A stretch of 63,586 nt of DNA, the filler included, from Chrysochromulina tobinii (taxonomy: Eukaryota): assembly GCA_001275005.1 (NCBI GenBank). It is 6 parts of 6 records of this genome, joined end to end, with 100 filler letters (N's around TTAATTAATTAA, not from the genome) between each part and the next. Parts side by side here need not be neighbours in the genome. Positions count along the whole stretch, not along the records: positions 32,492 to 54,466 come from JWZX01001268.1; 5 more parts are not named here. One strand, written 5' to 3'. Of this stretch, positions 17,592 to 61,124 are shown in pieces. The notes below the pieces were generated by a model that saw only the letters and a list, made by a program, of their open reading frames with translations, did not search any database and was not told where the DNA came from. Made by a program: the position numbers and the translations under genes. Every line of letters begins with the position of its first letter. Positions within the stretch are counted from its first letter, which is position 1.

Positions 17592-17691
17592 NNNNNNNNN
17601 NNNNNNNNNNNNNNNNNNNNNNNNNNNNNNNNNNNTTAATTAATTAANNNNNNNNNNNNNNNNNNNNNNNNNNNNNNNNNNNNNNNNNNNN
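17592..17691. other. Assembly linker (also at 32392-32491, 54467-54566, 57622-57721, 61025-61124)
   Basis: N44-TTAATTAATTAA-N44, a six-frame stop spacer. Confidence 0.98.
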
Positions 17692-31299: not shown

Positions 31300-31873
31300 T
31301 CACGCATCGGTGTCCGTGTTCACCTCAACGACAAGATCCTTGCCCATGATCGTCAGCACCTTCACTTTGAGCGACTCGCCCTCGTCAAAGCGTTTCACGA
31401 GCTCCTCGCCGACAGCGTCCCAACCCAAGCTGTCCTCGCCACGGCTCAGCATCGCATCCTCCTTTGGCTCGCCATCTGCGGTCAGAAGCGACAGCGTGCC
31501 GTCGCTCTTGTCCACATCCATGAGCGAGAAATGGGCATAGGCGGTGAGCGGTACATCGATGCCGTGAAAGCCGGCCGTGCAATTGATCGTGTCATCGTAC
31601 TTTTTCCCGGTGAACACCTGAAGGAGCACGCGTGTATCGATCAATGCAACAGCATAAGTTTATGAGGGCAGCGAGCCTCCATTGGTCGTCGTTGGGGGGG
31701 TTCGCTTCTCGCACATTAAGTCCAATGAGCTGCACTCGCTTATTGCCGTTGGCCGTCGCCTTTGGCAGCTGTGTCACCTCCAATAGTCTGCACGGATTAC
31801 CTTTGATCATCGCGTACCCATTCTTCTTGAGCTCCTCGGGCTGCACCTTGGTCGTCGCGCCTTCTTCGACCAT
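31300..31873 (-). CDS. eIF5A-like protein lacking the hypusine motif (intron 31618-31714)
   Basis: LKKNGYAMIKGNPCRLLEV...VQLIGLN|VFTGKKYDD...IDVP...GTLSLLTADGEPKED...FDEGESLKVKVLTIMG aligns by eye along eIF5A. Confidence 0.85.
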
Positions 31874-32391: not shown

Positions 32392-32491
32392 NNNNNNNNN
32401 NNNNNNNNNNNNNNNNNNNNNNNNNNNNNNNNNNNTTAATTAATTAANNNNNNNNNNNNNNNNNNNNNNNNNNNNNNNNNNNNNNNNNNNN

Positions 32492-32623
32492 AGAGGTCAT
32501 CAGAGGCAATCAGAGGTGCCATCCAACGAAACGTGCCCACCTGCATGCAATGAGGGAGGCAATCAGAGGTCATCAGAGGTCATCAGAGGTAATCAGAGGT
32601 GCCATCCAACGAAACGTGCCCAC
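32492..32623 (-). other. Repeat-cassette intron F (stacked, at least 2 units, runs into gap)
   Basis: GAG|GTGGGCACGTTTCGTTGGATGGCACC + 10-mer repeats + CTCCCTCATTGCATGCAG, then the same 26-bp exon copy and repeats again. Confidence 0.85.
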
Positions 32624-35600
32624 CTCGACGGCGCCCGCGGCGCGCCCCTCACCCGAGGTGGCGAGGCCGAAGTCGGTGATGCGCACCTGATGAGGGAGGC
32701 AATTAGAGGTCCTCAGAGGCAATCAGAGCTCATTAGCGAAGACGGTGATGCGCACCACGCCTCCGGAGTCGAGGAGCAGGTTGGAGCACTTGAGGTCGAG
32801 GTGGAGGACCCCCTTGCGGTGCAGGTACGCCATCCCAGTCGCGACACCCTCGGCCACTGACCAGAAGAAGTTGCGAGGTCATCAGAGGTCATCAGAGGTC
32901 ATCAGAGGTCATCAGAGGTCATCAGAGGTCATCAGAGGTCATCACACACCTGACCAGAAGAAGTTGCGAGGGGTTGGTCGGTTGAGTGCCTGCCGTACGT
33001 CGCCGCCGTCGCAGTACTCGAGCACCAGGCAGTATGTGGGAGGCGCCGCAGCCGCGCCGAGGCAGCGTACGATGTTCGGATGGCGCAGTCGGGTGAGCGC
33101 CGCCACCTGATGAGGGAGGCAATCAGATGCAATCATATGCAATCAGATGCAATCAGCGCAGTCGGGTGAGCGCCGCCACCTCTGCACGCCAGCCCGCCAT
33201 GCCCGCCACCCCCGAGCACGCCACCTTGACCGCCACCGCCACGCCCTCCCAAGCGGCCAGGTAGGTCGCGCCCATCGCGCCGCCTCCGATGCGCCGGTGG
33301 AGCACTAGATCATCAAGCGAGATACGCCAGTCCACAGGGCAGTCCTCCGTCAGGTCACCTGATGAGGGAGGCAATCAGTGATCATCAAGCGAGATACGCC
33401 AGTCCACAGGGCAGTCCTCCGTCAGGTCACCTGATGAGGGAGGCAATCAGTGATCATCAAGCGAGATACGCCAGTCCACAGGGCAGTCCTCCGTCAGGTC
33501 ACCGTGCCGCCTTCCCAGCATGCGCGATCGTGCCGCGAGCTGCTCGTCCGCAGCGGCGGCCGCCAGCACCGGCGAATGCGGCGCTGTCGTGGGCAAAGGC
33601 GCTGTCGTGGGCAAAGGCGCTGTCGTGGGCACCGGCGAATGCGGCGCATTGTGGATGGCGAGGGAAGATGAGGGCGCTGCCGTGGGCAAAGGCGCTGTCG
33701 TGGGCACCGGCGAATGCGGCGCATTGTGGATGGCGAGGGAAGATGAGGGCGCTGTCGTGGGCAAAGGCGCTGTCGTGGGCAAAGGCGCATTGTGGATGGC
33801 GAGGGAAGATGAGGGCGCTGTCGTGGGCAAAGGCGCTGTCGTGGGCAAAGGCGCATTGTGGATGGCGAGGGAAGAGGAGGCGTGCGCGTGCACGCTGCTG
33901 AAGGCGCTGATGGCGCTGCTGACGGCGGCAGCGCCGCCGGTGCCCACGGCAGCGCGGGTGCCCACGGCAGCGCTGCAGACGGCGCTGGGGCTGTTGCTGC
34001 TGCTGCCATCGACGCCGACGAGCAGCAGCAACGCACGCTTGAGAGCAGCCGCAGGCAGCGCACGAAGTTGCGCCGCGAGGGCATCGTTTGCATGCTGAGC
34101 CTCCGCCGGCGTGGGCGTGGTGGTGGCGGTGGTGGTCGTGGTGGCGCGCAGGACAGCGGCGACCGCGGCCACGGCCGCCTCGTTCTCATCGATGCTGTCG
34201 CGACCGGCGCCCATCACGGCGCTCGGGACGCCCGTGACGGCGCTCGGGACGGCTGCCTCACTCATCACGGAGAATGCGCCACTGCCGCTGCCGGAGGAGC
34301 CCGTAGTGGGCGCTGCAATGGGCGCTGCAATGGGCGCTGTCGTGGGCGCTGTCGTGGGCGCTGTAATGGGTGGTCCGATCTCGCGCCCGATCTCGCGCAC
34401 GTCGCCTCTCCCCCGCCGGCCAACGGTCGGGCTGAGCGGCCACCCGTCATCTCCCCCGTCATCTCCCCCACATCTCCCCCGCCGGCCAACGGTCGGGCTG
34501 AGCGGCCACCCGGCCGGTAGAGATGTGAGCGTCGTGATGGGCGTTGGCTCGCCCGGGGCGTCGTGATGGGCGCCGGCCGGCGCGGAGCCGGCGAAGGCGG
34601 AGGGCACGGCGGCGGTGAGCTCCGCGAGGACCGCCGCTTCGATGGCTTGGAGCTTGTCGACGTGCTCCGTGTACAGGTCCCAGCAGCGGCGCACGGTGAG
34701 GGCCGTGCGGATGGCGTGCAGGTCGAACTCGGTCATGAGGCGCAAATGAGCCTGAGCGAGCTCCGGGTTCTCAATCGTGAAGCCTTTCGCCATGAGCTGC
34801 AGCAGCCGCGGCGGCGCCGAGGTCCGGAGAGAGTCCTGATACGCCTTCTGGTTCGAGGCGCAGATGACGAGGTCCGCAAAGGCGCGCGGGGGCAGCGCCG
34901 GGACGGCGCGCTCCGGCAGCGCAATCACGCCGGTGAGGAAGCCGCGCATGTAGGCGGTGGACTCCTTGAGCCTTGCGAACTTGGAGATGGAGGAGGCCCA
35001 TAGGGAACCGCCGCTCTCGTGCCACACCTGCATGCAATGAGGGAGGCAATCAGAGGTCATCAGAGGTCATCAGAGGTCATCAGAGGTCATCAGAGGTCAT
35101 CAGAGGTCATCAGAGGTCATCAGAGGTCATCAGAGGTCATCATCACGCACCTGACGCTCGACGAGCTGCAGCACCTCCTCGCACAGCGCCGAGTACGCGC
35201 GCAACACCGCATAGAAGACCTGCGCGCGCCCTGCCACGCCAGGGCCCGAGGCCAGGAAGCTCCGATCTCCCATCGAGGTCGCGGCTGGAGATCGAGGTCG
35301 AGATCTCCGATCTCCCATCGAGGTCGCGGCTGGCGCAGCGGGTGGCATCGAGGGCGGCGAGGAGACGGGTGCGGGGAAATCTGACGAGGAGATCTGACGA
35401 GGTGCGGAGAGATCTGACGAGGAGATCTGACGAGGTGCGGGGAAATCTGATGAATTGCCAAATTCATCAGACCATCGGCGAACTACTTCGGCATCCACCG
35501 CCTCGCGCTGCAGCTGCAGCCGATTGAGTAGCTCGGGAGCTGGCCCAGCCGCATCGGTGCGCCTACGGAAATCAGCGAGCTTGGCACCGAAGGAGCCGAG

Positions 35601-37682
35601 CGTGCCCCCACTCGCCACCCATGCGCACGTCACCCCCCGCTCGCGCTGGAGCGCGTGGAGTAGCAGCTCCCAGCGCGTCTTGCCGCCGCTGTCCGAGCCA
35701 CCGGCCGTCCCGGAGCCGCTGGCCGTTGGGCTGCCGGCGGCGCTCAGGACGGCGCTCAAACTGGCCGTTGGGCTGCCTCGTTGCTGCAGGGTTGGAGCCC
35801 AGTACGGCGCCCCGACCAGAGCGCCGCCGCCAGCCGCTCCGCCTGCCGCGCCCGCGCCCAGTACGGCGCCATCGAGCCACGAGTGCTCGCCCAGTACGGC
35901 GCCGTCTTTCACCTCGGCGGGCAGGTAAGAGAGGGTGGCGGCAGGTAAATGCCTCTCTCCATCCGTGGGCAGGTAAGAGAGGGTGGCAGATGCCGAGGGC
36001 AGGTACGAGAGGATGGCAGATGCCGAGGCAGCGGCGGCCGTGTCGTTCACCGTGGCGCCAGCATGCAGCACATTCACATTCACAGGGAGCGTGGCCGTCA
36101 ACGGGGCGAATGCCGCAAAAGGGGGGGATGCCGCAAAAGGGGGGGATGCCGCAAAAGGGGGGGATGCCGCAAAAGGGGGGGATGCCGAAAAAGGGGGGGA
36201 TGCCGCAAAAAGGGGGGATGCCGCAAAAGGAGAGGATGCTGCAAAAGGGGCGCTGCTGCCGGCCGGCGCGCCCTCGTGCGCGCCGTTGCGCCCATTGGTG
36301 ACTAGGAGCGAAGGCAGTTGACGTTCGACGAGGCGTCGCCAATCGATCGGCGCGAAGAAAGGGTCCGCTCGAACAGCATTCCCGCCCTCTCGCCCTGTGC
36401 CGCCTAGACGGCCCTCGGGCCGTAGGATCAGCAGCTTGGAGATAAGGAGCGACGCGCTCGCCGACACGCTCGGCGGCATCGCGTCCACGAGGACCGCGGA
36501 AGACGACGACCCTAATATGGACGCCGTCCCTAATATGGAAGACGTCCCTAATATGGAGGACGACCCACCCGCGCCGCTCCCCGCCGCCGTGCCCCGCCAC
36601 CTATGGGCGCCGTACTGGGCGGGGAGCACTCGGCCCGTCGGCTGGAGATCGTGATCGAGATTGTGCTCGAGATCGCTCGCCAGCTGCTTCATCTCCTCCT
36701 CTAAAGCAGTCATGCGACTGCCGTCAGCGCCGCCGCCGTGAGCGCCGCCGCCGTGGACGCCGCCGCCGACGTCGCCCAGCCTGTCCTCGTCCAACGTGAA
36801 CATGCCTTCGACCTCGCCGCTGTTGCTGCAGCGCGGCGACCTCACGCCGCCGCTGCTGCTCATGCTACCGGCACAGCTGTGGCCGCCGCAGCTGTGGCCA
36901 ACGCTCGCGTCGTGTTGGGCAAACCGGTCAGCGCCCGTGCCAACGCTCGCGTCGTGTTGGGCAAACCGGTCAGCGCCCGTGCCAACGCTCGCGTCGTGTT
37001 GGGCAAACCGGTCAGCGCCCGTGCCCCACGGGAGCTCTCCTACAAGCATCTCATAGAGCAACACGCCGATGGCCCACCAGTCCACCGCGAAGGTGTATGA
37101 CGCGCCGCGCAGCACCTCCGGCGCCATGTACTCGGGCGTGCCGACCTGCGAGCGCGCTGAGATCGAGGTGGAGCCGCCGAAGCTCGACGAGCCTAGCAAG
37201 CGCTTGGCGGTGCCGAAGTCGGCGAGGACCGCGTGGCCGTCGAGCCCGAGCAGCACGTTCTCGGGCTTAAGGTCGCGGTAGATGATCCCGTGCTCGCGGT
37301 GCAGGTGCTCAATCGCGTGGGTCATCTGGGCGAGCACGAGCCGCGCCGCCTCGGTGGCGAGAGGCCCGTGGACCTGCAAGTGGCTGAAGAGGTCGCCGCC
37401 GCCCACAAAATCGAGCGCCTGATAGAAGTGCGAGTGGTCCTCGAAGGCGTAGTGAAGCCGCACAATGTATGGATGCACAATCTGCTTTAGCAGCACACTC
37501 TCCTGCTCTACCCGCTGGATTGCGCGGGCCGAGCCCAGTGCCGCTTTGCTCACCACTTTGAGCGCAAAGAGCTTGCCGTTCGACGAGTGGCGCACGAGCA
37601 CCACCTCCGCCGAGCCCCCCTGACCCAATACCCTCAACGCCTCAAAGTCGGAGATCACCAGCGACGATGGAGGGGCCTCCAT
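32492..37682 (-). CDS. Dual protein kinase: AGC-type kinase, NIT-like sensor domain, TKL kinase; 6 introns; 3' truncated by gap
   Basis: Kinase 1: LGQGGSAEV, FALK, YRDLKPEN, DFG, GTPEYMAPE, VDWWAIG. NIT-like LHALQRERG...RRRTD...LKES. Kinase 2 after splicing: IGGGAMGATY, VAVK, LRHPNIV, HLDLKCSN, DFG, GTFRWMAP. Confidence 0.88.
32687..32755 (-). other. Repeat-cassette intron E (19-bp downstream-exon duplicate, 1 mismatch, decayed repeats)
   Basis: GTGCGCATCACCGTCTTCG...CTCTGATTGCCTCTGAGGACCTCTAATTGCCTCCCTCATCAG|GTGCGCATCACCGACTTCG; removal restores SGGV-VRITDFG. Confidence 0.88.
32857..32949 (-). other. Repeat-cassette intron D (mirror type, 22-bp upstream-exon duplicate at 3' end)
   Basis: CCTCGCAACTTCTTCTGGTCAG|GTGTGTGATGAC(CTCTGATGAC)6-CTCGCAACTTCTTCTGGTCAG|TGGCC; removal restores FFWSVAEGVATGMAYLH. 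Confidence 0.9.
33107..33179 (-). other. Repeat-cassette intron C (24-bp downstream-exon duplicate)
   Basis: GAG|GTGGCGGCGCTCACCCGACTGCGC + TGATTGCATC-type repeats + CTCCCTCATCAG|same 24 bp; restores RAEVAALTRLRHPNIV. Confidence 0.9.
33359..33502 (-). other. Repeat-cassette intron B (two 72-bp units: 51-bp exon duplicate plus 21-bp acceptor cassette)
   Basis: Three exact 51-bp copies (33308-33358 exon, 33380-33430, 33452-33502) separated by ACTGATTGCCTCCCTCATCAG. Confidence 0.9.
35028..35150 (-). other. Repeat-cassette intron A (9 x 10-bp repeat, only CAGGTG shared at the ends)
   Basis: CAG|GTGCGTGATG(ATGACCTCTG)9-ATTGCCTCCCTCATTGCATGCAG|GTGTGG; joins the 859-aa and 537-aa ORFs in phase 0. 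Confidence 0.9.
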
Positions 37683-37915
37683 GTCCTGTATCCCACCAAC
37701 CGCGGGCACTCTCGACCTCCGTCAAGGGGTGTGTGCTCTCTCGTCCTCCGTCCATGTCAAGTCAAGTCCACGGCCAATCGATCATGTTTTCGGCCATTTT
37801 CAAAACAATTAGCTCGAGAACGGCTCGGCTCATGGATGGTCGTGGCGGCGGTGCTCGTTCAAATTCCGTCGGAATCACGAGTTGTTACGCTCACTTGCAA
37901 GAGTGTGCGAACACA

Positions 37916-49280: not shown

Positions 49281-51989
49281 ATGGCGCCGGCTGCGTCGAG
49301 CCTCTTGGCCACCATCCTTCGCGACGTGGACGCGAACCCGGCCAACGTGCAGGGCGCGCTGGCTGTGCTGCGCGGGCGCACGCTAATCGCCGTGGTTGAT
49401 ACGCAAACGCTCGACGCGTGGAGCTCTCGCTTGCAGGCATTGCTTCGAGGCCCGGTGCCCGAGGCTCGGGTCGCGGCGGCGGCGCTGCTCAGCGAGACGG
49501 TGCAGCAGTGCACGCAGTTCGAATTTGCACGGCACCGCGAGCAGTGGGCGGCAGCTCTGCTCCACTTGCTCCAGCCCATCAGCGAGGCCACGTCCGAGGC
49601 GGCCATCGCTGCGGCCACCTCCGTGCGGCTCGCTGCCGCTGAGGCGCTCGCGCACATGGTGACAGTGTCGGCAGGCTGGCCGGGCGAGCGGCGTGAGCTC
49701 TCGGGCGCGGTATCACGCCTTGCGACCGCGCTGGTCTCGATGCTTGGCGAGGCAACCACGCAGCACGGTGCGCTGCTCGTGCTCAGCCGGCTGTGCGCCG
49801 CTGTGCCTCACAGCCTTCGGGCCCATCGCGACAAACTGGGCGCGGCTCTGCCGTCAATTGCGCTCGAGGCGGGCGCCCCGGCCGCACGCGCCGCCGCGGC
49901 GCTCATGGGCGTACTGCCCAGCTGCCTGCCGGTCGCCGCGGTCGAGGAGGCATGGCTGTTGCACGTGCAGCGGCTGGTCGGGACGATGCACCGGGCACTC
50001 GCTCTGCTGCTAGGCGCCGTCGTGAGCGCGCCACCGGTACGGTACGAGCTGCCTGCTTACGCGCTGCCCGCCGAGGCGCAGGCGAGCGCCGTCGTGGCGC
50101 CGTCCTTCGGAGTGCCCACGACGGCGCCGTCGGTGGCCGCTCAACACAGCGCTCGCACGAGCGCAGCGGCGCAGCGGCGGCGCTCGGCTTTAGTTCGGTG
50201 CGTCTCTCGTTGTGCTCTTGCGTTGCATTGTGGCTTGTGCCCGCCCTCGACGCCGGCGGACGCCCTGCCGATGCCCGTGCCGCTCGAGCTGCTGGTCAGC
50301 ACCGCCGCCTACATCCTCGACGCTGACGGCTTGGTCCCGGTTCGCGTACCGGTCACCGAGGCGGCCCTGCCGCTCGCGGAGGCGCTGCTCGTCCTGCCCG
50401 AGGTGCACCTTGCAGCGCTCCAGCTGCTGCACTCGACGGTGGCGTGTGCGCAGCGTCACGCCCTCGGCCACGTGTCGACCATCGCTCCGGTGAGTGCCGT
50501 TAATTGCTCTGATTGCCTCTGATTGCCTCTGATTGCCTCTGATTGCCTCTGATTGCCTCTGATTGCCACTCATTACGGCCACGTATCGACCATCGCGCAG
50601 CTCCTTCGGCGTTCGTGGCAGCGCACCTCGCCCTCCGGCCCGCCCCAGCTGCGCTGCGCCGAGCTACGCGCGGCCACATACGCTCTGTCGGCGGTGCTCT
50701 TGAAAGCCTTTGGGCCATGTGTGGTGGGCGCCATGGGGGAAGCGCTCGTGAGCCACGCTCTCCTCGACTTGACTGGTCAGCTGCCTTCCCGAGCCAGCGC
50801 TGCCGCTGCACACGACGGCGGCGCTGGAGCGCGCAAGCGACAGCGTCAGAATGAGGACGGCAGCGTCGGCGGCAGCGTCGGCGGCAGCGTCGGCGGCAGC
50901 GGCGTTGCCGCCAGTGGCGCTGCCGCCACCGGCGGCGGGCGGCCGGCTCCGGTGGGCGTGCAGTGTGCGGCCCTGAGCGCCGTGCACGCCCTCCTGCTAG
51001 TGGGCTCCGAGCTGCTCAACCTCGCTCTCCTCGGCCGGCTACAGCGGGCTCTCCTCTCGGCGTGCGTCGACGCGGCGCAGTGCGCGCCCGGGACGGCGCT
51101 GCACGCGCTGCTGCTCTCGGCGCTGGGCGCTGCGGTGGGCACCGGGCGCGCCGTGCATGGCGACGTACTGCCGCGCGCCATTGCGGTGCTGCAGGGCGCG
51201 GGCGTGCGCGCGCCCGTCGGCGTGGCGCGGGCAGCTGCGTTCAGCGCATTGCATGCATCGGATCCCCTGCTGCATCCGGGCGGGGTTGCATGCTGGAGCC
51301 TACCGGCAGAGGAAGAACGTGCCGCCGACGCCGCGGCTCGGCCGGCGGTTACGGCGGTTACTGGCGCCCACCACGACGCCGCGGCTCGGCCCGGAGCCAC
51401 CACGGCGCCTGCCTCCACGCTGGCCGGTGCCCCTGCCTCCACGCTGGCTGGGGCCCCTGCCTCCACGCTGGCTGGGGCCCCTGCCTCCACGCTGGCTGGG
51501 GCCCCTGCCTCCACGCTGGATCTCTCCTCCATTGCCCCTGCCTCCATTGCCGTTGGAGCTCGCCCCACCCTCCTGCCTGTGGGATCGGGCGCCGTCGTGG
51601 GCGCGACGGTCGAGGCGTCGAGATGGGCGCCCGCGACGACGCAGGGGCCGCCATCCGCGATGCCGTCCGCGCCGCCGCCGCCCGCACCGCCGCCCGCACG
51701 GGCTTCTGAGGCGCCAGCTCCACCCGCTCCACCCGCTCCACCCGCTCGGGCCGTCGCAATCTCGATGGCAATCTCGAAGGCCGCGCCGCCGGCCGCCCTT
51801 TCGCCGGGCTTGCGGACTGGAGCTCACGACGGCGCTCCGCTGCTGCACCTTCCAGGCGCAGCGTACGCTCACGACGGCGCGCCGATGGATGACGACGACG
51901 ACTCCGAGGTCGAGCTTGTCATGGCTCCTCCCGACGAGGCCGATCGGAGCGCCGTCGTGAGCGCCGGGCAGATCGGAGCGCCGTCGTGA
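49281..51989 (+). CDS. RIX1/PELP1-like ribosome biogenesis protein (intron 50490-50600)
   Basis: Helical N-terminus AWSSRLQALL...LLSETVQQC...WAAALLHLL, PxP-LHP motifs, Pro-rich region, acidic end DDDDDSEVELVMAPPD. Confidence 0.7.
50490..50600 (+). other. Repeat-cassette intron, mirror type, (CTCTGATTGC)6 plus 25-bp upstream-exon duplicate
   Basis: CGGCCACGTGTCGACCATCGCTCCG|GTGAGT...(CTCTGATTGC)6...CGGCCACGTATCGACCATCGCGCAG|CTC. Confidence 0.88.
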
Positions 51990-52126
51990 GCGTCGGGCAG
52001 ATCGGAGCGCCGTCGTGAGCGCCGGGTAGATCGGAGCGCCGTCGTGAGCGCTGGGCAGAACTGAGCGCCGTCGTGAGCACCGGGCAGATCTGAGCGCCGT
52101 CGTGAGCGCCGTGGCAGATCGGAGCG
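51942..52126 (+). repeat. 29-bp minisatellite (~6.3 copies) spanning the stop codon
   Basis: GATCGGAGCGCCGTCGTGAGCGCCGGGCA units at 51942, 51971, 52000, 52029, 52058, 52087. Confidence 0.9.
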
Positions 52127-52483: not shown

Positions 52484-53380
52484 ATGACGAGCCCCGCCGC
52501 CGCCTCGATTGGATTAGCGGAGCGCGCAGCCCTTGGTGCAGCAGGGGGTATTGGCGCCTCGTTCTTTTGCCACCCCCTCGACGTCATACGCGTTCAGATG
52601 CAAGTGGCGCAGTACAGTGGAACGGTGGACGCCGCGGTCTCAATCTTCAAAAAAGGCGGTATCGGCGGCATCTACGCGGGCCTCTCTGCTGCGTGGCTGC
52701 GCCAGGTCACATACGGCAGCGGTCGCCTGGGCATCTACAGCTACCTTCTCGACCGTGACAAGCGTAGCCGCCAAGCGAACGAGCAGCCCAGCTTTTTGGT
52801 CAAGCTCTCGTATGGGACCGTCGCGGGCTGCTTGGGCGCCGCCGTCGGATCCCCTGCCGAGCTTGCGCTCGTGCGGATGGGAGCGGACAGCTCCATCGCC
52901 GACCCAGCGAAGCGGCGCGGCTACGCCAACTCCATCGACTGCGTGATCCGCGTCGCCCGCGAGGAAGGGCTTGGGGCGCTGTACACGGGTGCGACGCCGA
53001 CCGTGCTGCGAGCTGGGATGCTCAACTCGACGCTGCTCGCGATCACCTCGCAGCTCAAGCCACTCATCGCCGAAAAGACGGGCTGGGGCGAGACGGACGT
53101 CAAGAACATGTTCGTCGCGACGACGGTCGCTTCGTTGTTCTCGACGCTGAGCTCGCAGCCGTTTGATGTGGTCAAGTCTCGGGTGCAGCAGGCCTCGAAG
53201 GGCGAGTACGCGGGCATGCTCGACTGCGCTCGCAGGTCCTTCGCCAAGGAGGGCGTCACCGTCTTTTGGAAAGGCTTCACTCCGGCCTTCGTCAAGCTCG
53301 CACCCTTCTCGATCATCAGCTTGACGTTGCTTGAAAAGTTGACGGCGCTCTACACGGGTGGCAAGTCGGGAGCACTTTGA
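52484..53380 (+). CDS. Mitochondrial carrier, dicarboxylate/2-oxoglutarate-malate type
   Basis: PLDVIRVQMQ, GLSAAWLRQVTY, PAELALVRMGAD, PTVLRA, PFDVVKSRVQ, FWKGF. Confidence 0.92.
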   Translation: MTSPAAASIGLAERAALGAAGGIGASFFCHPLDVIRVQMQVAQYSGTVDAAVSIFKKGGIGGIYAGLSAAWLRQVTYGSGRLGIYSYLLDRDKRSRQANEQPSFLVKLSYGTVAGCLGAAVGSPAELALVRMGADSSIADPAKRRGYANSIDCVIRVAREEGLGALYTGATPTVLRAGMLNSTLLAITSQLKPLIAEKTGWGETDVKNMFVATTVASLFSTLSSQPFDVVKSRVQQASKGEYAGMLDCARRSFAKEGVTVFWKGFTPAFVKLAPFSIISLTLLEKLTALYTGGKSGAL

Positions 53381-54000
53381 GCCGGTTGGCGACGCTCTAC
53401 ACGGGTGGCAAGTCGGGAGCACTTTGAGCCGTGTAGAGCGCCGTGTAGAGCACTTTGAGCCGTGGAGCGCCGTGTAGAGCGCTATGGAGCGCCGTGTAGA
53501 GCACTTTGAGCCGTGGAACCCTATGGAGCCCGAGGTGGCCGCACCCTGGCTGTGGAGCAGAGAGAGAGAGAGAGAGGGAGGGTTGAGCAGAAGTGATTCG
53601 GAACGATCTGCGCACAAGAATCGTGGCGCCATTCCCGCCAAAGGGGCTTGCAAAGGGGGGGCGGCTCCCTCCGCGCCGTGGCCGCGGAGACGCCGACAGG
53701 CGCGCTTGCTGATTAGAGCGTGCAACTTACCTTTCACGGTCCAGATGGGTTTGGGACATAAGTTCTCAAGAGTCAACTGTGTATACGATCTGCATCCTCG
53801 ACACCCAACACGCCGACCCTCCCCTTCAAATTCCCCACCGCAATTCAGTGGGTCCCTCTTGGTAGGGTGCTTGTTCAGTTAACAAATCTCTTTATTCAAC
53901 TGCGGAATGCGCGTCCGTCCAAAAATGCGCTGTGATGTGAATAGTCCGCAGATTATAAATAAAATCATAGAGGCCGTCCGGTAAGGCCGACCAGGTAACC

Positions 54001-54466: not shown

Positions 54467-54566
54467 NNNNNNNNNNNNNNNNNNNNNNNNNNNNNNNNNN
54501 NNNNNNNNNNTTAATTAATTAANNNNNNNNNNNNNNNNNNNNNNNNNNNNNNNNNNNNNNNNNNNN

Positions 54567-57500
54567 TGCTGAGCCTGCTTTGCATGATGAGGATGCTGAG
54601 CCCGCTGAGCATGGCTGAGCATGATGAGGATGCTGAGCTCAATGAGCAGGCTGATCACGCTGAGCAGGCTGAGCAGGCTGAGCTTGCTGAGCTTGCTGAG
54701 CACGCTGAGCACGCTGGGCACGCACCGAGCACGCCACAGCGATCCCGGTGATGATGAGCCCGCTGAGCACAATGAGCTTGCTGAGCCCGCTGAGCATGAT
54801 GAGGATGCTGAGCACGCTGAGCATGATGAGGATGCTGAGCCCGATGGGCAGGTTGAGCAGGCTGAGCATAGGCTGAGCAGGCTGAGCTCGCTGAGCTTGC
54901 TGAGCACGCCGGGCACGCACCGAGCACACTGCAGCAATCCCGGTGATGCTGAGCCTGCTTTGCATGATGAGGATGCTGAGCCCGCTGAGCATGATGAGGA
55001 TGCCGAGCTCAATGAGCAGGCTGAGCACGCTGAGCAGGCTGAGCAGGCTGAGCTTGCTCAGCATGCTGGGCACGCGCCGAGCATGCTGCAGCGATGGCAG
55101 TGATGATGAGCCCGCTGAGCGCAATGAGCTTGCTGAGCCCGCTGAGCATGATGAGGATACCGAGCCCGCTGAGTATGATGAGGATGCTGAGCTCAACAAG
55201 CAGGTTGAGCAGGCAGAGCTCGCTGAGCTTCCTGAGCACGCCGGGCATGTGCTGAGCACGCTGCAGTGATGGCGGTGATGATGAGCCCGCTGAGCACAAT
55301 GAGCTTGCTGAGCCCGCTGAGCATGATGAGGATGCTGAGCCCGCTAAGAATGATGAGGATACTCTGCCCGCTGAGCATGCTGAGGATGATGAGCCCATTG
55401 AGCAGGGTAAGCAGGCTGAGCACGCTGGGCACGCGCCGAGCACGCTGCAGGGATTACGGTGATGATGAGCCCACTGAGCACAATGAGCTTGCTGAGCCCG
55501 CTGAGCATGATGAGGATGATGAGCCTGCTGAGCATGATGAGGATGATGAGCCCAATGAGCAGGTTGAGCTTTCTGAGCTTGCTGAGCAGGCTGAGCGGGC
55601 TGACCTTGCTGAGCTTGCTGAACACACTGACCTTGCTGAGCATGCTGAGCATGCGGAGCACGCTGAGCTTAACTTGCTCAGCACGCCTATCGGGCTCATT
55701 ATCACCATCCTTGCTACAGCGTGCTTGGTGTCTCAGCGTGCTCAGCAAGCTCAGCAGAATCAGCGTGCTCAGCAAGCTCAGCATGCTCATCGAGATCACC
55801 TTCCTCATCCTGCTCAGCGGGCTCAGCATCCATATCGAGCTCAGCATGCTCACCATCGCTCAACATTGCTGCAGCATGCTCTCATGCTTCACAGGGTCAG
55901 CAAGCTCAGCAAGCTCAGCAAGCTCAGCAAGCTCAGCAAGCTCAGCAAGCTCATAGTGCTCGGCATCCTCATATTGCTCATCAGAAGCTCAGCAGGCTCA
56001 CTCAGCATCCTCATTGTGCTCAGCGGGCTCATCATCCGTTGCCAACATCGCCACAGCGTAATCAGCGTGCTCTGCAGGCTGAGCAAGCTCCAATAGCCCA
56101 GGAAGCTAACAGGATGCTCAGCAAGCTCAGCAAGCTCAGCCTGCTCAATGAGCTCATCATTCTCATCGTGCTCGGCGCGCTCAGCATCCTCATCATGCTC
56201 AGCGGGTTCAGCAAGCTCATCGTGCTCAGCGGGCTCATCATCACCGCCATCGCTGCAGCTTGCTCGGCTCGTGCCCAGCGTGCTCAGCAAGCTCAGCCTG
56301 GTCAGCCTGCTCAATCTGCTCATCAGGCTCAGCATCCTCATCATGCTCAGCGGGCTACGCATCCTCATCGTGCTCAGCGGGCTCAGCAAGCTCATTGTGC
56401 TCTGCCGGCTCATCATCACTTCCATTGCTGCAGCGTGCTCAGCTTGCTCAGCAGGCTCAGCAAGCTCAGCGAGCTCAGCCCGATCAGCCTGCTCAGCCTG
56501 CTCATCAGAAATATCATCATCCTCAGCATGCTCAGTGGGCTCAGCATCCTCATTGTGCTCAGCGGGCTCAGCAAGCTCATCGTGCTCAGCGGGCTCATCA
56601 TCACTGCCATCGCTGCAGAATGCTCGGCACGTGATCAGCGTGCTCAGCGTGCTCAGCGTGCTCAGCGTGCTCAGCAAGCTCAGCAGAGTAAGCCTGCTCG
56701 TTGGGCTCATCATCTCAAACGTGCTTATCGCGCTCAGTATCCTCATCATGCTCAGCGGGCTCAGCGAGCTCATTGTGCTCTGCCGGCTCATCATCACTTC
56801 CATCGCTGCAGCGTGCTCAGCTTGCTCAGTAGGCTCAGCAAGCTCAGCAAGCTCAGCCCGATCAGCCTGCTCAGCCTGCTCATCGGGCTTAGCATCCTCA
56901 GCATGCTCAGTGGGCTCAGCATCCTCATTGTGCTCAGCTGGCTCAGCAAGCTCATCGTGCTCAGCGGGCTCATCATCACCGCCATCGCTGCAGCTTGCTC
57001 GGCGCGTGATCAGCGTGCTCAGCGTGCTCAGCGTGCTCAGCAAGCTCAGCAAGCTCAGCAGGGTAAGCCTGCTCAGCGAGCTCAGCCCGAACAGCCTGCT
57101 CAACCTGCTCATCAGAAATATCATCCTCAGCATGCTCAGTGGGCTCAGCATCCTCATTGTGCTCAGCGGGCTCAGCAAGCTCATTGTGCTCAGCGGGCTC
57201 ATCATCACTGTCATCGCTGCAGCTTGCTCGGCGCGTGCCCAGCGTGCTCAGCAAGCTCAGCCTGGTCAGCCTGTTCAGCGAGCTCAGCCCGATCAGCCTG
57301 CTCCACCTGCTCATCGGAAGCATCATCCTCAGCATGCTCAGTGGGCTCAGTATCCTCATCATGCTCAGCGGGCTCAGCAAGCTCATTGTGCTCAGCGGGC
57401 TCATCATCACTTCCATCGCTGCAGCTTGCTCGGCACGTGCCCAGCGTGCTCAGCAAGCTCAGCGATCTCAGCGAGCTCAGCCTGCTTACCCTGCTCATTG

Positions 57501-57621
57501 GGCTCATCATCCTCAGCATGCTCAGCGGGCTTAGCATCCTCATCATGCTCAGCGGGCTCAGCATCCTCATTGTGCTCAGCGGGCTCATCATCACCGTCAT
57601 CGCTGCAGCGTGCTCGGCGTG
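54567..57621. repeat. Complex satellite built from GCTGAGC-containing subunits, with an orientation switch near 55670
   Basis: GCTGAGC/ATGATGAGG units up to ~55668; the reverse complement GCTCAGC/CCTCATCAT afterwards. Confidence 0.93.
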
Positions 57622-57721
57622 NNNNNNNNNNNNNNNNNNNNNNNNNNNNNNNNNNNNNNNNNNNNTTAATTAATTAANNNNNNNNNNNNNNNNNNNNNNN
57701 NNNNNNNNNNNNNNNNNNNNN

Positions 57722-61024: not shown

Positions 61025-61124
61025 NNNNNNNNNNNNNNNNNNNNNNNNNNNNNNNNNNNNNNNNNNNNTTAATTAATTAANNNNNNNNNNNNNNNNNNNN
61101 NNNNNNNNNNNNNNNNNNNNNNNN

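What the first reader, a model, noticed from the sequence alone, without database searches (positions are those of the whole stretch)
50465..50600. Same intron family in an unrelated plus-strand gene, with diverging duplicates
Seen: the RIX1-like gene has GTGAGT...(CTCTGATTGC)6...CACTCATTA plus a 25-bp copy of the upstream exon with 3 mismatches. The intron copy ends CAG while the exon copy ends CCG. The repeats are again sense to the host gene. Inference: the family is dispersed and oriented by transcription, and selection kept the AG only where it serves as acceptor.
Basis: partly seen in the sequence, partly recalled or inferred. Interest (0 to 1): 0.7.

Follow-up and report, generated by a model that had tools for sequence, protein, structure and literature searches.

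The report
Young intron born with exon duplication
A 111-base intron in a ribosome-assembly gene of a freshwater alga is cut out of the RNA, has no counterpart in the uninterrupted proteins predicted for a sister lineage and more distant relatives, and ends in a 25-base copy of the exon before it, so it likely arose recently when a piece of another repeat-rich intron was pasted in during DNA repair, a process that likely also added five introns to a nearby gene.

Summary
A GT-AG intron (50490-50600) interrupts a RIX1-domain gene of a Chrysochromulina alga. Its 86-nt insert carries the donor and six 10-mers; its last 25 nt copy the upstream exon (3 mismatches) and supply the AG. RNA contigs of two runs skip exactly these 111 nt. 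Sixteen of 16 close orthologues read STIAQLL without a break, as predicted. A closer relative has the same intron with CAG in both copies and a GC donor, so the exon's CCG is one late Gln-to-Pro change, not evidence of selection on the AG. A kinase gene on the same contig holds five more such introns, absent in its sister lineage. Their duplications run about 13-51 nt; the insert supplies the donor (2 of 6) or the acceptor (4 of 6). Variable long duplications and half-intron fillers fit repair or template switching that copies part of an existing intron better than a fixed-footprint Introner; that step is inferred. Orientation by transcription cannot be told from survival of spliceable inserts. 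The scan noted this family before elsewhere in this genome (e1-2577349). A new variant of intron gain with target duplication.

The parts
49281..50489 (+). Exon 1 of a RIX1/PELP1-like gene (403 codons)
   Evidence: ATG at 49281; Pfam RIX1 PF08167, E 5e-16, above cut-off; RNA contigs cover most of it
50465..50489 (+). Exonic copy of the 25-bp duplication, ending CCG (derived; CAG in L027, Gln in orthologues)
50490..50600 (+). 111-nt phase-0 GT-AG intron, spliced
   Evidence: joint in RNA contigs of X12 and X13; stop codons in frame if retained
50490..50575 (+). 86-nt insert: GTGAGT donor, six CTCTGATTGC units, then CACTCATTA, which resembles the family's acceptor end without the final G
   Evidence: four units and a GC donor in relative L027
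50576..50600 (+). Intronic copy of the duplication; its CAG is the acceptor
   Evidence: identical in L027
50601..51989 (+). Exon 2 to the stop codon
35028..35150 (-). Kinase gene: complete 123-nt family intron with only CAG|GTG at both ends; older, shared with the sister lineage
   Evidence: P0023-P0025 begin with its translated 3' end; no RNA joint among those shown
33359..33502 (-). Kinase gene: acceptor-type intron, two tandem units of 51-nt exon copy plus 21-nt insert
33107..33179 (-). Kinase gene: acceptor-type intron, 73 nt, 24-nt exon copy
   Evidence: retained in one X12 RNA contig, no joint shown
32857..32949 (-). Kinase gene: donor-type intron, 93 nt, perfect 22-nt exon copy supplying the AG (same layout as the RIX1 intron)
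   Evidence: spliced in 3 of 3 RNA runs
32687..32755 (-). Kinase gene: acceptor-type intron, 69 nt, exon copy of 13 nt exact or 19 nt with one mismatch
   Evidence: spliced in 1 of 3 RNA runs
32541..32623 (-). Kinase gene: acceptor-type intron, 83 nt, exon copy of about 27 nt; a further array follows at the contig end
   Evidence: no RNA joint shown

Best explanation
This is a spliced GT-AG intron whose donor lies in an 86-nt repeat-rich insert and whose acceptor lies in a 25-nt copy of the upstream exon, and it likely arose in one recent event in which repair of a staggered break, or a template switch, copied part of an existing intron of the same family into the gene and duplicated the target. 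Shown: splicing; absence from the predicted proteins of the sister lineage and more distant relatives; presence in a closer relative; CAG as the older state. Inferred steps: synthesis left the exon at its CAG, entered a family intron at its CAG|GT junction, ran through the 10-mer array and rejoined the gene 25 nt upstream. Read from the other side, the same move gives the acceptor-type introns. Survival then kept only sense inserts that splice cleanly. Afterwards the array changed length (4 against 6 units), the donor came to differ (GC against GT) and this strain's exon CAG became CCG, likely tolerated because GTGAGT is a strong donor. Whether the template was DNA or RNA is open.
For: Splicing in 2 of 3 RNA runs. 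STIAQLL unbroken in 16 of 16 close orthologues from contigs of 2.8-16 kb and unbroken frames in 6 of 6 at 47-48% identity. Of 21 hits examined from 71 in the HMMER search, 16 cross the site without a gap. L027 groups with the window (97.9% against 91.6% aa identity) and has the intron. Duplication length varies (25, 22, 24, 13-19, 51, about 27 nt) and either end can come from the insert. Inserts look like halves of a complete family intron: the 93-nt intron matches the 5' end, and the 83-nt intron the last 58 nt, of the older intron in the same gene. Two of 6 inner junctions show 4-nt microhomology against a one-sided background of 0.0055 (a hint, since junction placement inflates it). P0023 and P0024 come from unspliced DNA and lack all five duplicated introns. 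P0025 and P0027 appear to carry a different filler with a like duplication at one site (from translation only). End joining of breaks with overhangs makes tandem duplications in mouse cells (PMC5730883, abstract).
Against: No source locus was found for the RIX1 insert; no whole genome was held. The RIX1 inner junction has only 1 nt of microhomology, and 4 of 6 junctions have 0-1. The match at the outer junction is also what splicing demands, so it does not discriminate. All six events splice with no added or lost residue, tidier than random repair unless selection is strict. Five events in about 1 kb of one gene, with one elsewhere in 63 kb, are not explained by plain repair. Orthologue absence rests on predicted proteins, not DNA; close orthologues are one lineage; some distant ones may come from transcripts. 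L027's donor and CAG lie in the first bases of a single contig. Three of five duplicated kinase introns show no RNA joint among those listed, and one is retained in an RNA contig.
Confidence: 0.55

Rival explanations
1. RNA route: a reverse transcriptase (LINE-type target priming, or copying of a reverse-spliced or unspliced RNA) inserts truncated copies of intron RNA and leaves a variable target duplication.
For: One end of every insert stops exactly at a splice site, as an excised intron would; 4 of 6 have an intact 3' end and a ragged 5' end; duplications are variable; all are sense; five cluster in one gene and two match that gene's older intron. Reverse-transcription template switching is a proposed route (PMC3443670, passages).
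Against: The two donor-type inserts, including this one, are 3'-truncated, which target priming on sense RNA does not give; no poly(A); no reverse transcriptase was looked for or found. The same intron end also occurs at another locus (table 5c), so the cis match is not unique.
Confidence: 0.18
2. The intron is older and the duplication came later: a break inside the intron was part-repaired on spliced mRNA, copying exon sequence across the junction (an aborted intron loss), while relatives lost their introns cleanly.
For: Explains why every duplication ends exactly at the splice junction and why both types exist. Joint loss of adjacent 3' introns in P0023/P0024 would look like cDNA-mediated loss; P0025/P0027 have an intron at one of the sites.
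Against: For RIX1 the sister lineage and many distant lineages cross the site unbroken, which favours gain. The one kinase intron shared with relatives is the one without a long duplication.
Confidence: 0.13
3. A non-autonomous DNA transposon (Introner or MITE) inserted; the 25 nt are its target-site duplication and TGAGTG/CACTCA its terminal inverted repeat.
For: Carrying one splice site and taking the other from the duplication is the Introner pattern, reported for a marine Chrysochromulina (PMC9860276, passages). The insert's ends can pair. The family is abundant.
Against: Published duplications are 3-9 bp and fixed per class (PMC9860276; bioRxiv 2020.10.14.339549); here about 13-51 nt and variable. 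The 6-bp inverted match is seen only in this member and uses ordinary splice motifs; the intron folds worse than shuffles (z +1.89). Inserts are 21-86 nt with one ragged end; no intergenic copy in the window.
Confidence: 0.12

Closest known systems
Introners that carry one splice site and take the other from the target duplication (Chrysochromulina sp. MAG, 4-bp TSD, no TIR; Symbiodinium and Polarella classes; PMC9860276, bioRxiv 2020.10.14.339549)
   Same: Recent gain, multi-copy related sequence, one splice site from the insert and one from duplicated exon, precise splicing.
   Different: Duplication about 13-51 nt and variable instead of 3-9 bp and fixed; inserts are partial, low-complexity and of both donor and acceptor type; that survey's both-ends and low-complexity filters would exclude them.
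Daphnia pulex neointrons ascribed to staggered double-strand-break repair (PMC4202315; PMC3443670)
   Same: A copy of the adjacent exon end at the opposite end of a new intron; presence/absence among close relatives; possible parallel gains at one site.
   Different: Daphnia repeats are 4-12 bp and the filler mostly has no known source; here repeats are longer and the filler matches other introns of the same genome.
Intron gain by tandem genomic duplication of an AGGT-containing exon segment (PMC3443670)
   Same: Duplicated exon sequence becomes intronic and supplies a splice site.
   Different: Here foreign filler supplies the other site; the RIX1 target had CAG|CT, not AG|GT.
Intron transposition and reverse-transcription template switching (PMC3443670)
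   Same: New introns resemble existing introns and lie sense to the gene.
   Different: Those models insert a whole intron without a long duplication.

Membership tests
Spliceosomal GT-AG intron | GT...AG ends and removal from RNA restoring the frame | tested here: met
Recently gained intron | Absent from sister lineage and outgroups, present in a nested clade | tested here: met
   Predicted proteins cross the site; L027 has it and groups with the window. Orthologue DNA not seen.
Introner (Gozashti et al. 2022) | Similarity between members at both intron ends | tested here: not met
   One end of each duplicated intron is a copy of local exon; criterion from PMC9860276 section 15
Introner (Gozashti et al. 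2022) | Not low-complexity | tested here: not met
   60 of 86 insert nt are one 10-mer; filter
Introner (Gozashti et al. 2022) | Short target duplication (3-9 bp) of fixed length, where present | tested here: not met
   25, 22, 24, 13-19, 51, about 27 nt
Introner (Gozashti et al. 2022) | One splice site carried, one recruited from the duplication | tested here: met
   6 of 6 duplicated introns; splicing seen for 3 of 6
MITE / DNA transposon | Terminal inverted repeats | tested here: inconclusive
   6-bp inverted match in this insert only; fold z +1.89
MITE / DNA transposon | Copies outside genes and an autonomous partner | not testable with these tools
   No whole genome held; none outside genes in the window
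Staggered-break neointron (Daphnia type) | Direct repeat of the adjacent exon end at the far end of the intron | tested here: met
Staggered-break neointron (Daphnia type) | Repeat of 4-12 bp | tested here: not met
   25 nt here; range from PMC4202315
Tandem genomic duplication intron | Both splice sites from the duplicated exon, no foreign filler | tested here: not met
   86-nt insert supplies the donor
Non-LTR retroposed insert | Intact 3' end with 5' truncation and variable duplication (features recalled) | tested here: inconclusive
   4 of 6 fit; this one and the 93-nt intron do not
Structured RNA family (Rfam) | Match at gathering score | tested here: not met
   One chance-level hit outside the intron, E 0.97

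The most novel reading that the evidence does not exclude
In this alga introns breed introns with no transposon: a half copy of an existing intron, possibly taken from the same gene's pre-mRNA, is written into a nick or break at a CAG or GTG, and a long exon duplication completes it. This is running now, leaves alleles with and without the intron, can hit one site twice, and would be a direct footprint of transcript-templated intron gain that current Introner screens filter out.
Probability: 0.22. Interest if true: 0.85.

Novelty: new variant of a known kind. Interest (0 to 1): 0.6.

Why it matters
Where new spliceosomal introns come from is still open outside Introner-bearing lineages; most recent gains have no traceable source (PMC3443670, PMC4202315). 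Here the source (other introns), the target (restored by removing insert plus one copy) and the age order (empty in a sister lineage, filled in a closer relative) can all be read, in a cultured alga with public RNA. The largest published screen listed this species among its genomes, and its filters would drop such introns, so a route of intron gain may have been overlooked. The CAG|GC against CCG|GT pair also catches the first steps by which a duplication footprint decays.

Tried and rejected
(1) My early idea that the last four exon bases came from the insert, not from the duplication: rejected, since L027 reads CTCAG there. (2) Exonic or in-frame reading of the 111 nt: stops in frame. Other GT/GC-AG pairs keep the frame, but RNA shows only this joint. 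(3) Ancient shared intron: not supported; P0030, P0034 and P0052 break upstream at other positions. (4) Pattern scans for more family loci: viral contigs gave 0, 0 and 2 AT-rich single matches; genome contigs gave 23, of which the 8 inspected were unrelated bacterial DNA or one contig end; genome G001 gave nothing useful. (5) Lake DNA run X18 gave only short scattered pieces on the kinase stretch; no inference drawn. (6) Lack of RNA joints for four kinase introns is not taken as lack of splicing: cover is patchy and 11 joints were not shown. (7) Replitrons (PMC10288648, passages): nothing relevant. (8) Rfam: nothing. (9) Telomere-repeat filler, as in other notes of the scan: not tested; the inserts carry non-repeat splice ends. 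(10) Look-up of earlier findings by this sequence: none.

Full report
Observation. The + strand carries a gene from ATG 49281 with a Pfam RIX1 domain (E 5e-16). A 111-nt phase-0 stretch, 50490-50600, begins GTGAGT and ends CAG. Left in, the frame stops at 413 aa; taken out, it runs 865 aa to 51989. The last 25 nt of the stretch match the last 25 nt of the exon at 22 positions, in exact register with both splice sites (about 3e-9 by composition). The other 86 nt are the donor, a short spacer, six CTCTGATTGC units and CACTCATTA.

Organism. A protein annotated as Chrysochromulina tobinii matches the kinase gene on the same contig as the RIX1-like gene, so this is most likely that freshwater haptophyte. 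The window is six contigs joined by linkers. No whole genome was held.

Splicing. RNA contigs of runs X12 and X13 skip exactly these 111 nt; the X12 contig has 412 and 190 letters on the two sides with no mismatch, so the mRNA carries CCG. X17, a lake run with a few differences, has no cover upstream and shows only the unspliced 3' part; X13 also has an unspliced piece; DNA run X9 shows no joint. That is 2 of 3 RNA runs.

Age and polarity. All 16 close orthologues seen (P0001, P0002, P0005-P0018; 15 of the 21 members of one cluster were listed) read STIAQLL without a break, and so do the frames of 6 of 6 at 47-48% identity. They lie on contigs of 2.8-16 kb, mostly far longer than the gene, so they are probably genomic; I saw no DNA for them, and the close ones are one lineage. 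From the HMMER search I examined 21 of 71 hits: 16 cross the site without a gap, 3 break upstream at other points, 1 does not cover it and 1 is the window-type unspliced peptide; some distant ones may come from transcripts. Locus L027 (97.9% aa identity to the window, 91.6% to P0005) has the same intron with four units and an identical last 44 nt, and begins CTCAG|GCGAGT. So the intron was gained after the split from the P0005 lineage, the duplication ended in CAG in both copies, and CAG to CCG is a late change in this strain. L027's first bases are a contig end, but they agree with the orthologues' Gln. The mismatch at -4 is shared with L027; it and the one at -16 cannot be polarised.

Selection claim. 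With 3 differences over two 25-nt copies, an unconstrained AG stays intact with probability 0.88. The exon change is Gln to Pro at residue 399 of the orthologue model, inside helix 394-408 (local pLDDT about 71-78; whole model poor, mean 53). One such change does not show selection sparing the acceptor, though an acceptor must of course keep its AG. GC with CAG in L027 against GT with CCG here looks compensatory; that is inference from one pair (for weak GC donors generally, PMC3167603, abstract only).

The family. A kinase gene on the minus strand has six introns with the same 10-mer; removing all six gives 740 codons without a stop. One (35150-35028) is complete and has only CAG|GTG at both ends; relatives P0023-P0025 start with its translated 3' end, which shows that they come from unspliced DNA and share it. 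The other five carry exon duplications of 51 (twice), 24, 22, 13-19 and about 27 nt, and P0023 and P0024 run through all five sites. One is donor-type like the RIX1 intron; four are acceptor-type, where the insert ends in the AG and the first copy gives the GT. RNA joints were seen for the 93-nt intron (3 of 3 RNA runs) and the 69-nt intron (1 of 3); the 73-nt intron is retained in one X12 contig; none is shown for the rest, with 11 joints not listed. P0025 and P0027 seem to carry a different filler with a like duplication at the last site (translation only). In DNA run X9, 1268 contigs lay on the RIX1 stretch, 1024 fitting two places, with summed depth 121,262 on the array against 38-47 on the long unique contigs: not a copy number, but the repeat is plainly genome-wide.

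Orientation. The motif occurs 5 times in the RIX1 intron and once alone on +, and 29 times on -, all in the kinase gene. Every array is sense, but two genes and no intergenic copy cannot separate a transcription-linked mechanism from survival of spliceable inserts.

Mechanism. The duplications are long and variable, and the inserts look like halves of a complete family intron: the 93-nt intron matches the 5' end, and the 83-nt intron the last 58 nt, of the older intron in their own gene, though that 3' variant also occurs at another locus. Two of six inner junctions have 4-nt microhomology (one-sided background 0.0055; junction placement inflates the match), four have 0-1 nt, RIX1 among them. 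I therefore favour repair of a staggered break, or a template switch, that copies part of an existing intron and rejoins upstream or downstream (0.55). Rivals: an RNA and reverse-transcriptase route (0.18), a secondary duplication by aborted intron loss (0.13), a DNA transposon (0.12). The narrower claim, recent gain with the duplication supplying the AG, I put near 0.9. The RIX1 insert has a 6-bp inverted match at its ends, but folds worse than shuffles (z +1.89) and other members lack the match.

Comparison with what is known. It works like Introners that carry one splice site and recruit the other, including a marine Chrysochromulina family with a 4-bp duplication (PMC9860276: passages, methods section 15, supplement search), and like Polarella classes with 3-8-nt duplications (bioRxiv 2020.10.14.339549: parts 1-2 of 4). 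It fails their tests of similarity at both ends, complexity and duplication length. In the stored supplement, which was cut, C. tobinii appears only in the list of genomes surveyed; the uncut file could differ. Daphnia neointrons share the footprint with 4-12-bp repeats (PMC4202315, passages). The mechanism review PMC3443670 (passages) lists no route with this anatomy in the passages I saw. The C. tobin genome paper mentions introns once, as a count (PMC4580454, passages). PMC5730883 (abstract) links overhang repair to tandem duplication. I recall that the Emiliania huxleyi genome paper reports 10-11-bp tandem repeats in introns and many GC donors; it was not held, so this is unverified. Searches (listings only, unless named above) found no description of these introns; subscription journals are not covered.

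Earlier notes. e1-2577349 describes a repeat-flanked intron in another gene of this genome and more than a hundred related ones in lake metagenomes, and read them as a mobile family; I checked the footprint on other loci here, not its counts. It and notes e1-9786341 and e1-7135070 gave me leads to papers; e1-7377310 offered the telomere-filler analogy, untested.

Verdict. A real, spliced, recently gained intron; one member of a set whose long variable duplications and half-intron fillers differ from described Introners. New variant of a known kind; interest 0.6.

Noticed in passing
P0025 and P0027, at the site of window 32623: Two near-identical relatives of P0023/P0024 repeat the peptide VSLDGT around a different filler, which implies an intron of about 73 nt with a like duplication at the same site as the window's 83-nt intron: a parallel gain or an old polymorphism. 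Read from translation only.
   Followed up: partly
window 32492-37721, minus strand: Gene with an N-terminal kinase domain and a NIT-domain hit and a second, C-terminal kinase domain; five duplicated introns fall in about 1 kb of the latter. The clustering is unexplained.
   Followed up: partly
window 17592-17691, 32392-32491, 54467-54566, 57622-57721, 61025-61124: N runs around a 12-nt linker: the window is six contigs joined end to end, so neighbours across these points are not linked.
   Followed up: yes
L027 1-15: The relative has a GC donor with CAG before it where the window has GT with CCG: a possible compensating pair. One contig end.
   Followed up: partly
window about 31618-31714, minus strand: A 97-nt GT-AG intron candidate without 10-mers or duplication in a gene that looks like eIF5A (name recalled, not tested): ordinary introns coexist with the family.
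   Followed up: no
window 51938-52126 and 53338-53502: Tandem duplications (29-mer about 6.5 times; 47-mer twice) straddle the stop codons of the RIX1-like and mitochondrial-carrier genes; short tandem duplication seems common in this genome.
   Followed up: no
window 54567-57620: About 3 kb of degenerate 9-mer repeats whose two halves run in opposite directions around 55700.
   Followed up: no
P0030, P0034, P0052: More distant orthologues lose homology at other points upstream of the site (P0030 about five residues before it), suggesting lineage-specific introns nearby.
   Followed up: no
L001, L008, L009, L011, L013, L018: A dispersed repeat of at least 60 bp in two bacterial MAGs contains the same 18-mer with unrelated flanks; not linked to the algal family.
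   Followed up: no
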